From Candidatus Enterousia sp. (GTDB taxonomy: Bacteria > Pseudomonadota > Alphaproteobacteria > Rs-D84), in NCBI GenBank assembly GCA_045617905.1, contig JAZLJO010000005.1, forward strand, positions 18,211-82,210: DNA of 64,000 nucleotides, written 5' to 3'. The notes beneath the pieces were generated by a model. That model had not been told where the DNA came from. It was given only the letters and a program-made list of their open reading frames with translations, and searched no databases. Position numbers and translations under genes: made by a program. Shown here in pieces: positions 1,906 to 45,371 of the stretch (the stretch's first letter is position 1; each line of letters opens with the position of its first letter).

Positions 1906-3375
1906 ATGATAGATTTAACAATTGCCGAAGCATTGGAAAAATTAAAAAACAAAGAAATCAGTGCAACCGAATTAACACGTGCCCATTTGGATCGTATTGA
2001 AAAATACGGTGCAGATTTAAATTGCTATATTACAATAACACCGGAACGTGCAATGGCAGATGCCGCCGCCGCTGATGCCCGTATTGCAGCCGGTCAAATG
2101 CGTATATTGGATGGTATTCCAATTGAAATGAAAGATTTGTTTGCGACCCGTGGTATTCGTACGACCGCTGCATCACGTATGTTGGAAAATTTTGTTCCTG
2201 AATACGAATCTACTATTTCACAAAAATTCATCGACAGTGGTTCTGTATTATTGGGTAAATCTAATTTGGATGAATTTGCAATGGGAACATTCAGTAAGAC
2301 CAGTTTCTTTGGTGCCCCTGTTAATCCATGGCAAATGGAAAAACGTTTAACCGCCGGTGGTTCATCTGGTGGTGCAACATCTGCAATTGCATCTGGCTTG
2401 GCAATGGGTGGAACCGGGACTGATACCGGTGGTTCCATTCGTTTTCCATCTGCAATCACCGGATTGGTTGGTATGAAACCAACATACGGCTTGTGTTCAC
2501 GTTGGGGTTGCGTTGCATTTGCATCCAGTTTAGACACCCCAGGTCCAATTGCACGTACCGCCGATGATGCTGCAATTTTATTATCTGTTATGGCGGGCCA
2601 TGACCCCAAAGATTCAACCAGCACCCCAAATGCCACATTTAATTTTAGCGGTAAATTAGAACCTGTTTTGGGTAATGGTAAAAAATTACGTATTGGTGTT
2701 ATCAAAGAATTTGCAGATGTTGAAATATCTGCGGATATGAAACGCATATTTGACAAACGTATTGCTGATTTAGAATCTGCTGGTGCCGAAATTGTTCAGG
2801 TTTCAATTCCAAACATATTGGATGCATTGGCGGCATATTACATAATCGCCCCGGCCGAGGCTTCATCGAATTTGGCCCGTTATGACGGCATGCGTTATGG
2901 TTTGCGTGTTGAAGGTTCTGATTTATTAGACACATACAAAAAAACACGTGCCGCGGGTTTTGGAACCGAAGTTCAACGTCGTATGATTGTTGGTACCGCT
3001 GTATTATCCAGTGAATCGTACGAGGTTTATTTTATGCAGGCCGCACGTGTTCGTCGTATGATTGCAGACAGTTTTGATACCGCATTTAAACAATGTGATT
3101 TGATTGTTTGTCCATCTGGTGCCGGTACGGCATTACCATTGGATTCAGATTTAACACCATTGGAATATTATGCGTTGGATTTATTCACGGTTGCAATGAA
3201 TTTGGCGGGTGTCCCTGCATGCAGTGCCCCGGCCGGTTTGGCAGATAATGGTTTACCATTGGGAATTCAAATTGTTGGTCGCCGTTTTGACGATATGCGT
3301 GTATTGCAATTGGCAAAACATATCCAAGAATTCGGCGGTGTTGATAATCGTCCAACAAAGATAATGGGAAAATAA
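1906..3375 (+). CDS. gatA: Glu-tRNA(Gln) amidotransferase subunit A (amidase signature)
   Basis: 489 aa. Amidase signature GGSSGGATSAIASG...GTDTGGSIRFPSA. Confidence 0.95.
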   Translation: MIDLTIAEALEKLKNKEISATELTRAHLDRIEKYGADLNCYITITPERAMADAAAADARIAAGQMRILDGIPIEMKDLFATRGIRTTAASRMLENFVPEYESTISQKFIDSGSVLLGKSNLDEFAMGTFSKTSFFGAPVNPWQMEKRLTAGGSSGGATSAIASGLAMGGTGTDTGGSIRFPSAITGLVGMKPTYGLCSRWGCVAFASSLDTPGPIARTADDAAILLSVMAGHDPKDSTSTPNATFNFSGKLEPVLGNGKKLRIGVIKEFADVEISADMKRIFDKRIADLESAGAEIVQVSIPNILDALAAYYIIAPAEASSNLARYDGMRYGLRVEGSDLLDTYKKTRAAGFGTEVQRRMIVGTAVLSSESYEVYFMQAARVRRMIADSFDTAFKQCDLIVCPSGAGTALPLDSDLTPLEYYALDLFTVAMNLAGVPACSAPAGLADNGLPLGIQIVGRRFDDMRVLQLAKHIQEFGGVDNRPTKIMGK

Positions 3376-3515: not shown

Positions 3516-5042
3516 ATGTTTACGATAAAAGGCAAAACAACAGATTGGGAAGTCGTCATTGGTTTGGAAACACATATCGAAGTACTGTCAAATTCCAAAA
3601 TTTTCAGCGGTGCATCGGCTGATTATAACCCAACAATTAAACCAAATACTCAGGTTTCAATGGTTGACGCAGCAATGCCTGGAATGTTACCTGTATTAAA
3701 TGAATATTGTGTTGAACAGGCAATAAAGTTTGGTTTGGGTATTAATGCGGAAATTTCCCATCGCAGCAAATTTGCACGTAAACAATATTTTTACCCCGAC
3801 CTGCCCCAAGGTTATCAAATTTCACAACCCGCCGAAGAACCACCGGTTGTTGGTCGTGGTTGGATTGAAATAATGGGTGACGATGGCAATAAAAAGAAAA
3901 TCTTTATTGAACGTGCCCATTTGGAACAAGATGCCGCAAAAAATAAACATGACATGCATCCGTCAAAATCATTTGTTGATTTAAACCGTTCTGGGGTTAC
4001 CTTATTGGAAATTGTTACATTTTTGGACACAAAAAATCCAGAAAACAATTCATATATTTCATCCCCGGACGAAGCAGAAAGATATTTACGTGAAATCCGT
4101 GAAATTGCACGTGCATTGGGCGTATCAAAGGCCAACATGGAAGAAGGTTCCATGCGTGCAGACGTTAATGTATCTGTTCGTCCCGCAGGTTCAAATGAAT
4201 TCCGTACACGTACAGAAACCAAAAATATGATTTCTTTTAAATTTATCAAAAGTGCCATTGAATACGAGGCCCGCCGTCAAATTGAAATTTATGAAAACGG
4301 TGGCACAGTCAGCCAAGATACCATGCGTTATTCTCAGGCCGATGGCACAACATCTGTTTTACGCAGCAAAGAAAACGCATTGGATTATCGTTATTTCCCG
4401 GATCCAGATTTATTACCATTAATTATTACAGATGAACAAATTGAACGCATTCGTAAAACAATGCCCGAATTACCCGCGGCCACACGTGCACGTTATATCG
4501 CCGATTATGGATTAAAAGAATATGATGCGGCCCGTTTAACCGAAACAACGGATATTTCACATTGGTTCGATTGTGCGGTGGGCAATAAAAAAGAACGCGG
4601 CAAAACCATTGCAAATTGGATGATTTCAGAATTATTTGCACACCCAGAAAATTGGGATGAAAAAAACAGTGGAAAAATTTCTGATGATCCGGATGCACCA
4701 CGTATTATTACACCATCTGATTTGGCCGAATTGGTTGATATGATTGCTGCATCAGAAATCAATGGTAAACAGGCCAAAGAAATATTTATCAAAATGTTGG
4801 ATGGCGAAACCGGAACACCACGTGAAATTGCCGATAAATTTGGTATGAAACAAATCACCGATACGGCCGCAATTGAACGCGTTATTGATGAAATAATTGC
4901 CGCCAATCCATCCCAGGTTGAACAATACAAATCTGGCAAGGTTGGATTATTAGGCTTTTTCGTGGGCAACGTTATGCGTGCCACCGGCGGCCAGGCAAAC
5001 CCCGCGGTTGTCAGTGAAATGATGAAATCAAAACTAAATTAA
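3516..5042 (+). CDS. gatB: Asp/Glu-tRNA amidotransferase subunit B
   Basis: 508 aa. N-terminus WEVVIGLETHIEL-like block, PGMLPVLN, YFYPDLPQGYQISQ. Confidence 0.95.
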   Translation: MFTIKGKTTDWEVVIGLETHIEVLSNSKIFSGASADYNPTIKPNTQVSMVDAAMPGMLPVLNEYCVEQAIKFGLGINAEISHRSKFARKQYFYPDLPQGYQISQPAEEPPVVGRGWIEIMGDDGNKKKIFIERAHLEQDAAKNKHDMHPSKSFVDLNRSGVTLLEIVTFLDTKNPENNSYISSPDEAERYLREIREIARALGVSKANMEEGSMRADVNVSVRPAGSNEFRTRTETKNMISFKFIKSAIEYEARRQIEIYENGGTVSQDTMRYSQADGTTSVLRSKENALDYRYFPDPDLLPLIITDEQIERIRKTMPELPAATRARYIADYGLKEYDAARLTETTDISHWFDCAVGNKKERGKTIANWMISELFAHPENWDEKNSGKISDDPDAPRIITPSDLAELVDMIAASEINGKQAKEIFIKMLDGETGTPREIADKFGMKQITDTAAIERVIDEIIAANPSQVEQYKSGKVGLLGFFVGNVMRATGGQANPAVVSEMMKSKLN

Positions 5043-30502: not shown

Positions 30503-31000
30503 CTACATACCACGGGCCATATTCATGCCAATTTGAGTCATCCGATCTTCAGTTGAATTTCCACCATTTCCGCCGCCACCGACATGTGCTGATACATATA
30601 CCTTTTTTGCTGGATTCGGCATCCATATTGCATCATTACCCGTTTGTTCAATTATAAAACGATCTAAATTTTGCGAATTTGGGAACGTCCAGCACAAAAA
30701 CATATTATCTATATCAACCTCCCCCCCCCATATCAAGGGCACACGAAAACGTATTGATGTATTTTCCGGCAAATTTCGTCCCATTAATAAATCCATAAAC
30801 GCATCCTGTGATAAATTCATAAACGCCAACGTTTCTATAGAATCGTCCAACGAACACATAAACTGTCGTCGCGTTTCCCGATATCCAGAAAACCAATCAG
30901 ATGGCACATTTACAACATTGGGGGCCACCAAAACAATCGGCATATCGTCCATATGCATGCTTTTTAAACGTTGTTCTGCAAAATCTTGTGACCATTGCAT
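30503..31000 (-). CDS. Hypothetical protein with His-less colicin-DNase/HNH-like motif and Gly-rich tail
   Basis: 165 aa. VPLIWGGEVDIDNMFL resembles KPISQxGGVYDMDNI of E7/E9-type DNases, but the canonical His positions are R/F/N/F. Contains a G9 tract. Confidence 0.35.
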   Translation of the reverse strand: MQWSQDFAEQRLKSMHMDDMPIVLVAPNVVNVPSDWFSGYRETRRQFMCSLDDSIETLAFMNLSQDAFMDLLMGRNLPENTSIRFRVPLIWGGEVDIDNMFLCWTFPNSQNLDRFIIEQTGNDAIWMPNPAKKVYVSAHVGGGGNGGNSTEDRMTQIGMNMARGM

Positions 31001-41852: not shown

Positions 41853-42560
41853 ATGATACGTACACTGTTTTTTAAATTGATTTTAGGAATTTATTTTTTG
41901 GCATGGGCACCGATGTTATTAATTGGGTTAATTTCACGAAAACTTAGTTCTTTTTTGGTATTATCGTGTGCACATGGCGTTTTGATTTTGGCCAGAATAT
42001 TGGCCGGAATAAAATACGAGATTCATTATCCATTAACCGAAGAAAATGGTGTACCGGTTGCCCCAAATGAAAATATTCGTTTAGATGGCAAGGCCATTAT
42101 TGCTGCCAAACACATGTCAATATTAGAGGTTGCCATTCTGGCCCACCTTATTCCAAATTCATTTTTTATCATAAAACGCGAATTGACATGGATTCCAATT
42201 TATGGTTGGGCATTTTGGCGTATGGGGTTGCAACCTGTCAATCGGACGCGTGGTGCAACAAATATGAACAAATTAACAAATGTTGTTGCAAAAAAAATTA
42301 TGGACGGACAAATATTGATTATTTTTCCCGAAGGAACACGAACCAAACCGGGCCAGCCCGTACCATTAAAACGTGGGTTATTATTTTTGGCTCATCAATT
42401 AAAATTACCAATATTACCGGTTGGAACGGATACAGGCTTGTATTGGCCAAAACATGGTCGCATGCACAGCGGTACAGCCAATATATGGTTTGAACCAATG
42501 TTACCATGTAATGCATCATTAGACGAAATAAACAACGCAATAAACAAACACAGTGCATAA
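41853..42560 (+). CDS. plsC: 1-acyl-sn-glycerol-3-phosphate (lysophospholipid) acyltransferase
   Basis: AAKHMSILEV (H-x4-D/E box), FPEGTRTKPG. Confidence 0.8.
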   Translation: MIRTLFFKLILGIYFLAWAPMLLIGLISRKLSSFLVLSCAHGVLILARILAGIKYEIHYPLTEENGVPVAPNENIRLDGKAIIAAKHMSILEVAILAHLIPNSFFIIKRELTWIPIYGWAFWRMGLQPVNRTRGATNMNKLTNVVAKKIMDGQILIIFPEGTRTKPGQPVPLKRGLLFLAHQLKLPILPVGTDTGLYWPKHGRMHSGTANIWFEPMLPCNASLDEINNAINKHSA

Positions 42561-42626
42561 AAGTACTTGCTTTTGTTTCACGATATTTTGTATACTGCCG
42601 GACACAGAATTTTGAGTTGAACGCAA

Positions 42627-43373
42627 ATGATACATACATACATACATACATACATACATACATACATACATACATACATACATACATTAAATAAACTTAC
42701 CTATGCATTATTTTTATTGTTTTGTGTAACTGAAAGTGCAGAATGTGCTGTTCAAGGATGCAGTTGTAACAATGGTGGTTATACTGCCACACAAGCCCAA
42801 TTCGCCACCCAACATATGACCAGTCCTGCGGGGTCTTATTCGAATTGTACAGCATATAATTATAAATATATTACAGCTGGAGGTTCTTACCTGGCAATAC
42901 CAGATTGTCAAACATGCAGTGCGGGTTATCAGTTGATTGCAAAGAGCTATGATTTTAGTCAATCATGCGGTTATGGGTATGGTACCGAGTGTGTAATAAA
43001 TTATTCCAATTGTAGTAAATGTGATGCTATCGGTAACTATTACGATTCGTCGTCAAAACAGTGTAAAGCCTGTACAAATGCACCATCAAATGCAACCTAT
43101 ACCAGCAATGGCGGAACCAGTGCAACGGGGTGTTCGTGGCAATGTAATGCGGGATATTATAAAAATTCAAACACTTGTACAAAATGTGCCGCGGGAACCT
43201 ACAGTGCCGCCGGTGCAACGGTATGTACCAGTTGTAAAACCACAACCAGTAATACCAGTGCAACATCTGCAGAGGGGTCAACAACCATAAATGATTGTTA
43301 CGTTCCAAAAACGGCGCAATTTACCAATACATTCGGGACATGGCACTATACAGACAATTGTTATTATAAATAA
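42627..43373 (+). CDS. Cys-rich secreted protein with GCC2/GCC3 (ephrin-receptor/TNFR-like) repeats; candidate phase-variable gene
   Basis: ATG, then the (TACA)14 tract, then signal-like YALFLLFCVTESAEC, then repeats such as CQTCSAGYQL, CSWQCNAGYYKNSNTCTKCAAGTYSAAGATVCTSC. Confidence 0.6.
   Translation: MIHTYIHTYIHTYIHTYIHTLNKLTYALFLLFCVTESAECAVQGCSCNNGGYTATQAQFATQHMTSPAGSYSNCTAYNYKYITAGGSYLAIPDCQTCSAGYQLIAKSYDFSQSCGYGYGTECVINYSNCSKCDAIGNYYDSSSKQCKACTNAPSNATYTSNGGTSATGCSWQCNAGYYKNSNTCTKCAAGTYSAAGATVCTSCKTTTSNTSATSAEGSTTINDCYVPKTAQFTNTFGTWHYTDNCYYK
42630..42687 (+). repeat. Tetranucleotide microsatellite (TACA)14
   Basis: Counted directly: 14 perfect TACA units at 42631-42686 plus flanking partial units. 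They are translated as (IHTY)n in the downstream ORF. Confidence 0.95.
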
Positions 43374-43382
43374 TATCATTTA

Positions 43383-45371
43383 TTACATTGATTTATCATT
43401 TTGTTTGATACCATAAACACAACAGATTGAAAATAATAATATTATAATCATCCAACCGTTTCGACCAATGTATCTGTATAATGTAAAATGTTCACCGTGT
43501 GATACACCGTCTAATATTCCTGTTTGCCCTACTTCCAAATATGATGTAATGTTTCCCGCGGCATCAATAAATGCACTGATTCCAGAATAATTTGCACGGA
43601 TAATTGGAATTCCTGATTCAATTGCATAACGCCGAACCATATCCAAGTGTTGATACGTTCCGGGGGTTTTACCAAACCATGTATCATTTGTTATATTTAT
43701 TATGGCATTTATTTTTTGATTATTTTGCTTTATCAATGCATCTGAAAAAATTATTTCATAACATATTGCAGGTGCAATAACAAATTTTCCCGATGTTAAA
43801 TTAATATCTATTGTTTCCGGCCCACTTCCCCGCCCTAATTCAGTTGGTGATGGCATAATCCCAAATGGGCTGTATTCACCAAATGGGACCAAATGTGATT
43901 TACTGTATTTATGCCAAATTATACCATCCGGGGTGGCAAAAATCATAGAATTATACACACGACCATTTGAATACGTTAACGCACCTGTAATTATATTTTT
44001 TCCCAGCATTTTTGCCAATTGCATTTTATTATCTGTGACAATAAACGGGTATGTTGTTTCGGGATACACGATTAAATCAGCCGTTTTTGTACCATTATCA
44101 CGCGCCAATAAATACATTTGTTTTATATTTTTTTCGGCCATTGCAATTGCATCTGCACGTCCATTTGGCATTTTTTGTGATTGTGAACGTGCGGGTTGAA
44201 CAATTCGAATAACCGGTTGATTAATATTTTCTTTTATAGAATTTGCCATACTGATATTTATACGTCCACCAATTATTCCAATAAATCCCAACAACACGAA
44301 AATCAAAACCGGAATCCATGTTCGTTTTTTACCACGATAACGCAACAATTCAACAATTGCCGACACCACACCAATTATGATAAACGTTAACCCTAATGCC
44401 CCCCAAATCGACATTGAATTTGACAACGTTTTCCATGGCATTACGATATTTGCAATCGGATTCCAAGGAAAACCCGTTAAAAACCATTCACGCAACCATA
44501 AAACAAATGTCCATGTGGCGGCAAAAATGAATGGACTGGATAAAATACTGGATCGAAAACGTATAAACAATGCAAATGGTGTCGAAAATACTATCACACC
44601 AGCCAACCCAATACCAATTAGACCTGGAATTGTCCAGATGGCAAATTGTTCAGTCAATTCAGGAACAACATAAATTGAATGCAATACCCACCAAAACATT
44701 GCAATTGCATACATTGCACCAAATGGTGCCGTGTACATTAAACCACGCCAAAAACCAATACGATTTTGTATACGTGTTGTTAACCAATATGCCCCCCCAA
44801 TTCCCAATAACGCTGTTTCCCAAACATAAAATGGTGCGAAACCAATTGCAGCAACACACCCCAATATACCATATAACAAATATTGTGTTAATCTGTGTTC
44901 ACAAATGTGTTTTGTAATAGAAAAAAATCTTTTAAAAAAACCGCCATCATCATATGGATTTTTATAGCCTAATTTTTTTAATAATTTTGTTTCTAATGCC
45001 TGCATTATTTCGGCTTCGTCATCTTTAATATGATCGTATCCCTGCAAATGCAACATTCCATGAATTACCATATGTGCAACATGTTCTTCAACCGATATTC
45101 CCAATGCAACTGCTTCGCGTTTAACAGTGTCCAATGATATATAGATATCACCTAACAACAAATCATCCCCCAATTCAAATGACAATACATTTGTCGGTTT
45201 ATCGATATTTCTATATTCACGATTTAACACGTGGATTTCGGAATCTGATGTTAACGTTATCGACACTTCTGATTCTTTGTATACGGCAGAAACCGCCATA
45301 CAGGCGATTTTTTCAAAATCTATTTTATATTTTTTCCACCGTTTGTCATTGTAATTTACATATACCTGCAT
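43383..45371 (-). CDS. lnt: Fusion protein: YbeY endoribonuclease domain plus apolipoprotein N-acyltransferase (Lnt)
   Basis: N-terminal 150 aa carry the YbeY motif HGMLHLQGYDH. The remainder is multi-TM plus a CN-hydrolase domain (LIVYPETT..., ICYEIIF). A single uninterrupted 662-aa ORF. Confidence 0.8.
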   Translation of the reverse strand: MQVYVNYNDKRWKKYKIDFEKIACMAVSAVYKESEVSITLTSDSEIHVLNREYRNIDKPTNVLSFELGDDLLLGDIYISLDTVKREAVALGISVEEHVAHMVIHGMLHLQGYDHIKDDEAEIMQALETKLLKKLGYKNPYDDGGFFKRFFSITKHICEHRLTQYLLYGILGCVAAIGFAPFYVWETALLGIGGAYWLTTRIQNRIGFWRGLMYTAPFGAMYAIAMFWWVLHSIYVVPELTEQFAIWTIPGLIGIGLAGVIVFSTPFALFIRFRSSILSSPFIFAATWTFVLWLREWFLTGFPWNPIANIVMPWKTLSNSMSIWGALGLTFIIIGVVSAIVELLRYRGKKRTWIPVLIFVLLGFIGIIGGRINISMANSIKENINQPVIRIVQPARSQSQKMPNGRADAIAMAEKNIKQMYLLARDNGTKTADLIVYPETTYPFIVTDNKMQLAKMLGKNIITGALTYSNGRVYNSMIFATPDGIIWHKYSKSHLVPFGEYSPFGIMPSPTELGRGSGPETIDINLTSGKFVIAPAICYEIIFSDALIKQNNQKINAIINITNDTWFGKTPGTYQHLDMVRRYAIESGIPIIRANYSGISAFIDAAGNITSYLEVGQTGILDGVSHGEHFTLYRYIGRNGWMIIILLFSICCVYGIKQNDKSM

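What the first reader, a model, noticed from the sequence alone, without database searches (positions are those of the whole stretch)
42627..42690. (TACA)14 microsatellite between the start codon and signal peptide of a secreted protein gene, a textbook translational phase-variation switch
Immediately after the only in-frame ATG (42627) there are 14 perfect TACA units (42631-42686). They are read as (IHTY)n, followed by a signal-peptide-like segment (YALFLLFCVTESAEC) and the mature Cys-rich protein. The unit length is not a multiple of three. Gain or loss of one unit therefore puts the ATG out of frame and switches the gene OFF, while the present copy number is ON. Tetranucleotide contingency loci are well documented in Haemophilus and Neisseria. 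They would be a notable finding in this kind of AT-rich alphaproteobacterial (likely symbiont) genome. No other long microsatellite was seen in the 64 kb.
Basis: partly seen in the sequence, partly recalled or inferred. Interest (0 to 1): 0.7.

Follow-up and report, generated by a model that had tools for sequence, protein, structure and literature searches.

The report
Tetranucleotide on/off switch in secreted-protein gene
A perfect run of 14 TACA units sits between the start codon and the export signal of a small cysteine-rich secreted protein gene, and comparison with related genomes indicates it is a slippage-driven on/off switch of the Haemophilus/Neisseria type, here in an uncultured AT-rich alphaproteobacterium.

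Summary
Window 42630-42687 is a perfect 14.5-copy ATAC/TACA tract, the only long microsatellite in 64 kb. It lies directly after ATG 42627 and before a signal-peptide-like segment of a 248-aa Cys-rich ORF. Simulated copy numbers give the full protein only at n = 11, 14 or 17. All other lengths stop at TAA codons placed right after the tract.

Three comparisons support the switch reading.
- The only close homologue (50% identity, MAG GCA_024402715.1, a different genomic site) has the same layout: promoter, two ATGs, (ACAT)11, then the identical TTAAATAAA. It is out of frame there, and one unit more or one fewer restores the frame.
- A Logan contig from a close relative (PlsC 96% identical) has the same plsC/ATG/ATAC junction and ends 30 nt into the tract.
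- More distant family members, some at the same post-plsC site, have ordinary MKK-type signal peptides and no repeat.

The protein belongs to a large family of small secreted proteins. Family members pass Pfam's Ephrin_rec_like threshold, but the window protein itself is below it.

Length variation at a single locus was not observed, because no reads or second complete allele were available. Verdict: a well-supported new member of a known kind, SSR-mediated translational phase variation. Confidence about 0.8, moderate interest.

The parts
41853..42560 (+). plsC (1-acyl-sn-glycerol-3-phosphate acyltransferase), the upstream neighbour. No terminator follows it, so co-transcription with the switch gene is possible.
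   Evidence: Pfam PF01553, E 1.4e-23. No terminator-like site between 42560 and 42627. 770 homologues at E<=1e-30.
42561..42626 (+). Intergenic 5' leader. It contains the in-frame stop TGA 42618-42620 and a weak SD-like GAG at 42614-42616. A sub-threshold promoter candidate is TTGCTT (42567-42572)-N18-TATACT (42591-42596).
   Evidence: Sequence. The promoter scan lists nothing here. The candidate is not conserved in L157, where the spacer is 4 nt shorter and the -10 reads TATATG. Many genes in the window have an equally weak SD.
42627..42629 (+). ATG start codon, the only canonical start upstream of the signal-peptide-like segment.
   Evidence: The context ...gagttgaacgc[a/c]aATGATAC is conserved in L157.
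42630..42687 (+). Perfect (ATAC)14.5 = (TACA)14 tract. It is the slippage-prone element and is read as (IHTY)n in the ON frame.
   Evidence: TRF 100% matches, score 116. Unique in the window. The RNA is unstructured, z +3.0.
42687..42695 (+). TTAAATAAA directly after the tract. It encodes L-N-K in the ON frame and supplies TAA stops in both OFF frames (42688-42690 and 42692-42694).
   Evidence: The tract plus this 9-mer is 100% identical over 52 nt to L001, while the flanks are not alignable.
42687..42746 (+). Signal-peptide-like segment LNKLTYALFLLFCVTESAEC: a basic n-region followed by an 11-residue hydrophobic core.
   Evidence: The Kyte-Doolittle 9-residue maximum is 2.76, at least as hydrophobic as the canonical signal peptides of family members P0006 and L158. 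Family members start with MKK-type Sec signal peptides at the equivalent place.
42747..43373 (+). Mature Cys-rich protein (about 208 aa) plus stop codon.
   Evidence: 50% identity to P0001. Profile search: 805 relatives at E<=1e-3. The AF2 model is confident only for the C-terminal half.
43155..43298 (+). CxxC...GYY Cys-rich repeat region resembling the Ephrin-receptor-like / TNFR-like domain. It is below Pfam's threshold in this protein.
   Evidence: PF07699 scores 15.6 bits against a cut-off of 23.1 here. It is above the cut-off in family members P0152, P0178 and P0187. Foldseek's top hits are all TNFR/Eph CRDs but weak, E>=0.07.
43287..43370 (+). Conserved C-terminal family motif ...INDCYVPKTAQFTNTFGTWHYTDNCYYK.
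   Evidence: Shared with P0001, P0006 and P0007, with dozens of small secreted proteins, and with L135 and L158.

Best explanation
The (TACA)14 tract is a slipped-strand mispairing hotspot placed between the only usable start codon and the export signal of a small secreted Cys-rich protein.

Gain or loss of units during replication changes the tract by 4 nt per unit. With n = 11, 14 or 17, ATG 42627 is in frame and the cell makes a pre-protein: an (IHTY)n N-terminal extension, a Sec-type signal peptide, and a Cys-rich TNFR/ephrin-receptor-like domain. With any other n, the ribosome stops at one of two TAA codons built into the conserved TTAAATAAA right after the tract, and only a 15-27-aa peptide is made. 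The result is heritable, reversible, stochastic ON/OFF expression, as at a contingency locus.

The window copy is ON. The paralogue in a closely related MAG is OFF at n = 11, and because it has ATGs in two frames it would be ON in two of every three length classes.

Shown: the tract, its position, the frame consequences, the same module at two or three loci in two lineages, one ON and one OFF state, and repeat-free relatives with normal signal peptides.

Inferred: that slippage really happens at a useful rate, that the ATG is the start codon used, that the protein is exported, and that switching is selected (for example by host immunity, phage or a protist host).
For: - Perfect 58-nt tract, unique in 64 kb, with a chance expectation of about 1e-26.
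- Simulated n = 9-19 gives full-length product only at 11, 14 and 17. Otherwise translation stops at TAA 42688 or 42692.
- L001 (GCA_024402715.1) has a promoter TTTACA-17-TATACT, an SD-like GGGTGGGG, ATG669 and ATG673 in two frames, (ACAT)11 and TTAAATAAA. The ORF stays open for 68 codons upstream of the annotated start and encodes a signal peptide and the homologous CxC motif. It is out of frame with both ATGs, and one unit more or fewer restores the frame.
- The tract plus TTAAATAAA is the only 5' DNA shared by two genes that are 50% identical in protein and sit in different genomic contexts.
- L157 (Logan SRR17543911, PlsC 96% identical) shows the same plsC-leader-ATG-ATAC junction. Its contig ends 30 nt into the tract. 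I attribute that to an assembly break in the repeat, which is inference.
- Syntenic or family homologues without the SSR carry ordinary signal peptides.
- No in-frame ATG or GTG lies between the tract and the hydrophobic core.
- Published precedents have the same architecture. H. influenzae licA has (CAAT)n with initiation codons in two of three frames (PMC2212159). A strain R2846 glycosyltransferase has 14 AGTC units immediately downstream of the start codon (PMC2651432). Neisseria opa has CTCTT repeats in the leader-peptide coding sequence (PMC3745409).
Against: - No length polymorphism was seen at one and the same locus. The only orthologous comparison (L157) is truncated inside the tract.
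- No second complete allele of the window gene exists in the protein collections searched.
- The SD before ATG 42627 is weak and no conserved promoter was found.
- MAG consensus tract lengths can be mis-assembled, so the OFF state of L001 rests on one assembly.
- ATA codons occur in all three frames of the tract and could allow some length-independent leaky initiation.
- Only one tract is visible in 64 kb, so a multi-locus phasome in this genome is unproven.
Confidence: 0.8

Rival explanations
1. The tract lies in the 5' UTR or in a dispensable leader, and translation starts at a non-ATG codon in or after it (ATA within the tract, or TTG 42717). Tract length would then tune mRNA stability or translation efficiency rather than switch the frame.
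For: - The SD before ATG 42627 is weak.
- The tract RNA is completely unstructured, which could favour internal ribosome loading.
- ATA codons occur in every frame of the tract (sequence).
Against: - No in-frame ATG or GTG lies between the tract and the hydrophobic core.
- TTG 42717 would delete the n-region and half of the h-region.
- In L001 the first canonical in-frame start after the tract is 54 codons downstream, beyond the signal peptide and the first conserved Cys motif.
- An ATG directly abuts the tract at all three loci.
- The conserved TAA stops in both other frames make sense only if ribosomes read through the tract.
Confidence: 0.07
2. The tract is a selectively neutral microsatellite in a fast-evolving, dispensable accessory gene. 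Frame-shifts simply inactivate the gene, which is on its way to loss, rather than serving as a reversible switch.
For: - The closest relative with a complete locus (L134, PlsC 94%) lacks the gene altogether, as do L145-L153.
- The L001 copy is out of frame.
Against: - Both copies keep long intact ORFs with conserved cysteines behind the tract.
- The tract is perfectly pure at all three loci and keeps the same unit and the same 3' junction, although the rest of the 5' region has diverged beyond alignment.
- L001 needs only a change of one unit to be ON.
Confidence: 0.1
3. Assembly artefact or eukaryotic contamination. (ACAT)n is a common eukaryotic microsatellite and could have been chimerically joined.
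For: A scan of bacterial genome assemblies for (ACAT)7 was dominated by contigs with many tracts and dinucleotide runs in a few MAGs, which I read as eukaryote-derived contamination. The metagenome hits with tract + TAAATAAA likewise showed no bacterial gene context.
Against: - The tract is embedded in a 64-kb bacterial contig between plsC and ybeY-lnt. It is in frame with a bacterial-family ORF.
- The same junctions recur in three independent assemblies (window, L001, L157).
Confidence: 0.01

Closest known systems
Haemophilus influenzae licA (lic1) (CAAT)n translational switch, and other H. influenzae tetranucleotide contingency loci such as the strain R2846 glycosyltransferase with 14 AGTC units
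   Same: A perfect tetranucleotide tract sits in the 5' end of the ORF just after the start codon. Slippage moves the start codon in or out of frame. licA has initiation codons in two of the three frames (PMC2212159), exactly like ATG669/ATG673 in the L001 paralogue. [quoted passage not shown]
   Different: The repeat unit (TACA/ACAT) and the phylogenetic class (Alphaproteobacteria rather than Gammaproteobacteria) differ. The product is a secreted Cys-rich protein, not a cytoplasmic LPS-modifying enzyme. The tract precedes a signal peptide. No homology is involved.
Neisseria opa genes, with (CTCTT)n in the leader-peptide coding sequence
   Same: The coding repeat lies in the export-leader region of a multi-copy family of variable exported proteins. 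The frame is restored or disrupted by unit number (PMC3745409). Here too the same repeat module heads at least two family genes in one lineage.
   Different: The Neisseria unit is a pentamer that encodes the hydrophobic core itself. Here a tetramer encodes a polar (IHTY)n extension before the n-region. Opa proteins are beta-barrel outer-membrane adhesins, whereas this protein is small, Cys-rich and TNFR/ephrin-receptor-like. Family size here is unknown.
Small secreted bacterial proteins with Ephrin_rec_like (PF07699) / TNFR-like Cys-rich repeats and a ...CY[ILV]P...NCYYSN C-terminus (unnamed family recovered)
   Same: The window protein shares the C-terminal motif and the CxxC..GYY repeats, and it occupies the same post-plsC site as members in L123, L135-144 and L158.
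   Different: Of the 67 representatives under 360 aa that I screened among the 150 best hits, none carries an IHTY-type repeat, and most start with an ordinary signal peptide. The window protein itself is below Pfam's threshold. Only the window lineage and its close relative have the SSR leader.
(ACAT)n leader in a Bdellovibrionales MAG (L005, OZ251448.1)
   Same: SD, ATG-GCATT, then (ACAT)12 in frame with a 314-aa ORF whose next segment looks like a signal peptide. The unit and the architecture are the same.
   Different: The phylum and the downstream protein are unrelated, and the TTAAATAAA junction is absent. This looks like independent evolution and is itself uncharacterised.

Membership tests
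SSR-mediated translational phase-variable (contingency) locus | Long, pure simple-sequence repeat whose unit length is not a multiple of three | tested here: met
   14.5 perfect copies of a 4-nt unit. Unique in the window.
SSR-mediated translational phase-variable (contingency) locus | The tract lies within the reading frame downstream of the initiation codon, so unit gain or loss shifts the frame and truncates the product | tested here: met
   Simulation for n = 9-19: full length only at 11, 14 and 17, otherwise 15-27-aa peptides. No alternative in-frame ATG or GTG before the signal peptide.
SSR-mediated translational phase-variable (contingency) locus | Different tract lengths, and both ON and OFF states, exist in nature | tested here: met
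   Met only across paralogous loci. Window n = 14 is ON. L001 n = 11 is OFF for both ATGs. L157 carries at least 7.5 units but is cut off.
SSR-mediated translational phase-variable (contingency) locus | Tract-length polymorphism at the same locus, between strains or within a population | tested here: inconclusive
   The only orthologous locus found (L157) ends inside the tract. No other allele is in the protein collections.
SSR-mediated translational phase-variable (contingency) locus | High-frequency reversible switching of the phenotype | not testable with these tools
   Needs cultures, reporters or read-level data.
SSR-mediated translational phase-variable (contingency) locus | The product is surface-exposed or secreted, or otherwise under fluctuating selection (typical of the class, not strictly defining) | tested here: met
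   Bioinformatic evidence only.
- Signal-peptide-like segment.
- Family members carry Sec signal peptides.
- The gene is present or absent among close relatives.
- Within one species an allele is only 28% identical next to a plsC that is 100% identical.
Pfam Ephrin_rec_like (PF07699) / TNFR-like Cys-rich domain proteins | Score at or above Pfam's gathering threshold (23.1 bits) | tested here: not met
   The window protein scores 15.6 bits, E 0.014. Relatives P0152, P0178 and P0187 score 27.8-36.4 bits.
Pfam Ephrin_rec_like (PF07699) / TNFR-like Cys-rich domain proteins | TNFR/Eph-CRD-like disulfide-rich fold | tested here: inconclusive
   AF2 mean pLDDT is 54, with the C-terminal half at about 70-90. 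Foldseek's top hits are all DR4/DR5/p75/OX40/EphA CRDs, but E>=0.07 and TM<=0.32.

The most novel reading that the evidence does not exclude
The Cys-rich, eukaryote-like (TNFR/ephrin-receptor-like) secreted proteins form a multi-locus variant-protein system in a lineage of uncultured AT-rich Alphaproteobacteria. Several paralogues would share one portable 'ATG-(TACA)n-TTAAATAAA' leader module and switch independently. Highly divergent alleles would be swapped at the post-plsC hotspot. In sister species the same family would be controlled by a conserved, undescribed terminator/antiterminator leader RNA. That would be a bacterial counterpart of Neisseria opa or Giardia VSP repertoires, in bacteria not known as pathogens.
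Probability: 0.3. Interest if true: 0.65.

Novelty: new member of a known kind. Interest (0 to 1): 0.45.

Why it matters
A recent review (PMC11868660) raises the open question of whether multi-locus phase variation is really restricted to pathogens or only appears so because databases are biased. This locus is a clean, comparatively supported tetranucleotide switch in an uncultured, low-GC alphaproteobacterial lineage. PlsC homologues 72-82% identical to the window's occur on many contigs in ENA, Logan and NCBI assemblies. The switch controls a member of a large, unannotated family of small secreted proteins with eukaryote-like Cys-rich repeats.

There are practical consequences. Gene callers miss or truncate such genes: P0001 is annotated from an internal ATG and so lacks its signal peptide. 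De Bruijn assemblers can break at the tract, which is my reading of why L157 ends there. The locus also gives a concrete target for read-level measurement of phase states in metagenomes.

Tried and rejected
- Exact-protein look-ups of the window's PlsC and Cys-rich protein found nothing on record, so no second assembly of the same strain could be compared.
It did not return the window's relatives. A family-specific pattern would have been the better choice.
- The metagenome scan for (ACAT)4+TAAATAAA returned 10 loci, none with a bacterial gene context like the window's.
- The first protein search that included the IHTY repeat attracted low-complexity false hits, P0002-P0005. It was repeated without the repeat.
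- Pfam and NCBIfam give no significant hit for the window protein.
- The AF2 model from a 4-sequence alignment is poor in its N-terminal half, and Foldseek hits are not significant.
- I considered a promoter-spacer mechanism and rejected it. The tract lies downstream of the ATG, and in L001 it lies downstream of a good promoter.
- My hand-picked promoter in the window (TTGCTT-N18-TATACT) fails the scan's criteria and is not conserved in L157.
- The minus-strand ORF 42319-42687 (MYVC repeats) is an artefact of reading the tract antisense to plsC.
- Look-ups of PlsC relatives at about 80% identity (P0012, P0014), and of family member P0171, gave loci without any SSR.

Full report
**1. Observation**

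The sequence is as described. Tandem Repeats Finder reports one array at window 42630-42687: period 4, 14.5 copies, 100% matches and no indels. It is by far the highest-scoring short-period array in the window. My own scan finds no other tetranucleotide run above 3 units and no homopolymer above 9 nt. Given the base composition, about 1e-26 such runs are expected by chance in 64 kb.

ATG 42627 is the first start codon after an in-frame TGA (42618-42620). It opens a 248-aa ORF ending at 43373. The tract reads (IHTY)n and is followed by LNKLTYALFLLFCVTESAEC and a Cys-rich sequence.

A second in-frame ATG exists at 42816, but it lies beyond the hydrophobic segment. The only other canonical in-frame start before that is TTG 42717, which sits inside the hydrophobic core.

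**2. Context**

The upstream genes are ftsE, ftsX, a DUF218 gene and plsC, all on the + strand. A ybeY-lnt fusion converges from downstream. There is no terminator between plsC and the ORF, and no promoter passes the scan's criteria. A hand-picked TTGCTT-N18-TATACT is sub-threshold and is not conserved in the closest orthologous sequence.

The Shine-Dalgarno sequence is weak (GAG), but so are those of many genes in this window. The tract RNA contains no G and is unstructured.

**3. Frame logic**

I rebuilt the gene with n = 9-19 units. The full protein appears only at n = 11, 14 and 17. Every other n gives a 15-27-aa peptide ending at TAA 42688-42690 or TAA 42692-42694. Both stops lie in the 9-mer TTAAATAAA that directly follows the tract.

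**4. Comparative evidence, the core of the case**

*(a) The paralogue in L001.* The only close homologue among 5.8 billion proteins is P0001, 50% identical, from MAG GCA_024402715.1. On its contig (L001) the annotated gene starts at an internal ATG (881). The ORF is nevertheless open for another 68 codons upstream. Those codons encode LNK, a hydrophobic signal peptide and the homologous CxC motif.

That stretch is preceded by a perfect (ACAT)11 tract, two ATGs in different frames (669 and 673), an SD-like GGGTGGGG, and a 10/12 sigma-70-type promoter. With 11 units neither ATG is in frame. With 12 units ATG669 is in frame, and with 10 units ATG673 is. So one locus is ON and one is OFF, each one slippage step from the other state.

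The two genes sit in different genomic contexts; L001 lies next to rpsA and cmk. At the DNA level they share only a 172-nt central block (81% identity) and the tract plus TTAAATAAA (52/52 nt).

*(b) The orthologous locus in L157.* The 90% cluster of the window's PlsC contains four sequences:
- the window's own sequence (P0277);
- P0008, 94% identical;
- P0276, 96% identical, from Logan run SRR17543911;
- P0275, a partial sequence, 95% identical to the window's PlsC and identical to P0276 over its 180 residues. Its accession is five away from P0001's, so I infer it comes from the same MAG.

The Logan contig (L157) shows the same plsC stop, a conserved leader, and ATG followed by ATAC repeats. 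It ends exactly 30 nt into the tract. I read that as a de Bruijn break in a repeat longer than the k-mer, which is inference. The orthologous locus of a second lineage therefore also carries the module. If P0275 and L001 do come from one MAG, that lineage has at least two tract-headed family genes.

*(c) Relatives without the repeat.* None of the following has any SSR.
- L123 (JGI) has plsC followed by a family member with the normal signal peptide MRRLFLSF....
- Ten samples of a species with 78% PlsC identity have a 249-aa member with a normal signal peptide.
- L158 and L159 (82% PlsC identity) have a 189-aa member starting MKKFLMP....
- P0006 has MKKHILV....

*(d) Accessory and fast-evolving.* L134 (PlsC 94%) has only 206 bp between plsC and ybeY-lnt. 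L145-L153 lack the gene. Within one species, L138 carries an allele only 28% identical to the usual one, although its plsC DNA is 100% identical.

**5. What the protein is**

A profile of four members finds 805 relatives at E<=1e-3 among 1.84 billion representatives. Many are 90-330-aa proteins with Sec signal peptides and the C-terminal motif ...ITDCY[ILV]P...G.Y.Y..NCYYSN. Others are very long proteins matched over many repeated stretches.

Three small members pass Pfam's Ephrin_rec_like threshold. The window protein scores 15.6 bits against a cut-off of 23.1. NCBIfam has nothing.

An AlphaFold model is confident only in the C-terminal half. Its best PDB matches are all TNFR-superfamily or Eph cysteine-rich domains, but none is significant. 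I therefore describe the protein as a small secreted protein with a TNFR/ephrin-receptor-like Cys-rich region. I do not file it as a Pfam member.

**6. Mechanism and rivals**

The best explanation is a slipped-strand translational ON/OFF switch (confidence about 0.8). Its steps and their status are set out under the best explanation.

The rivals are:
- initiation inside or after the tract, with length-dependent tuning (about 0.07);
- a neutral microsatellite in a decaying accessory gene (about 0.1);
- artefact or contamination (about 0.01).

The first is weakened by the lack of any usable in-frame start and by the conserved OFF-frame stops. The second is weakened by intact ORFs and by the perfectly conserved module amid otherwise unalignable 5' regions. 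The third is weakened by three independent assemblies.

**7. Comparison with known systems**

The architecture matches several published cases.
- H. influenzae licA has (CAAT)n with initiation codons in two of three frames (PMC2212159).
- H. influenzae strain R2846 has a glycosyltransferase with 14 AGTC units immediately after the start codon (PMC2651432).
- Neisseria opa genes carry CTCTT repeats in the leader-peptide coding sequence of a multi-copy family (PMC3745409).

None is homologous; the resemblance is mechanistic. The same unit in the same position also occurs in an unrelated Bdellovibrionales MAG (L005). TACA/ACAT leaders are therefore not unique to this lineage.

**8. Novelty and score**

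This is a new member of a known kind: a new lineage, a new gene family and a rarely noted repeat unit, but a textbook mechanism. It is relevant to the question of whether SSR phase variation is confined to pathogens (PMC11868660). It also shows how such genes get mis-annotated or break assemblies. Interest is 0.45.

The most novel reading not excluded is a multi-locus, module-sharing variant-protein system with allelic cassette replacement, replaced in sister species by control through a conserved leader RNA. I put its probability at about 0.3.

**9. Limits**

No reads and no second complete allele were available. Transcription start, export and switching rate are all inferred.

Noticed in passing
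window 30721-30729 (C9 on +, G9 on the - strand), inside ORF 30503-31000 (-): This is the only G/C homopolymer of 9 nt in an AT-rich window. It lies mid-ORF (...LIWGGEVD...) in a 165-aa protein with no Pfam hit. It could be a second slippage-prone tract or just coding sequence.
   Followed up: partly
L157:5363-5395 (Logan SRR17543911 contig end): The orthologous plsC-leader-ATG-(ATAC) junction occurs in a lineage with 96% PlsC identity. The contig stops exactly 30 nt into the tract. I suspect, but did not test, that tracts of this length fragment short-k assemblies and hide such genes.
   Followed up: yes
L135-L144, about 3860-4680 (ten samples of one species, PlsC identical): The family gene after plsC is nearly identical in nine samples. 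In L138 it is replaced by an allele only 28% identical, although the plsC DNA is 100% identical. An A7/A8 length polymorphism lies about 45 nt upstream of the ATG (A8 in L137 and L144). licD and a cytidylyltransferase gene follow.
   Followed up: partly
L158:1915-2030 and L122:9860-9975 (upstream of family genes that lack the SSR): A conserved leader of about 110 nt: CUCCAAC...GUUGGAGG hairpin, then CCUCCAACCGCC...GGCGGUUUUUU terminator. An evident alternative pairing exists between the 3' arm of the first hairpin and the 5' arm of the terminator. Folding z-scores are -2.3 and -2.8. No Rfam family reaches its gathering score. This is a candidate attenuator or riboswitch controlling the same protein family in sister species.
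   Followed up: partly
L005 (Bdellovibrionales MAG OZ251448.1), minus strand around 3138-3185; also L088: In L005, SD, ATG-GCATT and (ACAT)12 are in frame with a 314-aa ORF that continues with a signal-peptide-like segment. L088 has (ACAT)9 ahead of a 509-aa ORF with a signal peptide, but out of frame with its ATGs. The same unit and layout occur in unrelated bacteria.
   Followed up: partly
L001:881-1462 (P0001, MCQ2599658.1): The public annotation starts this gene at an internal ATG and so omits the signal peptide and the first Cys motif. The true 5' end is out of frame behind the (ACAT)11 tract.
   Followed up: yes
window 43019-43187 vs L001:1081-1249: A 172-nt block is 81% identical, including about 40 consecutive identical bases that encode CDAIGNYYDSSSK. 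The genes are otherwise about 50% identical in protein. This mosaic conservation may reflect recombination between family members.
   Followed up: no
window 43383-45371 (-): ybeY (endoribonuclease) and lnt (apolipoprotein N-acyltransferase) are fused in one 662-aa ORF. The same fusion is present in the close relative L134.
   Followed up: no
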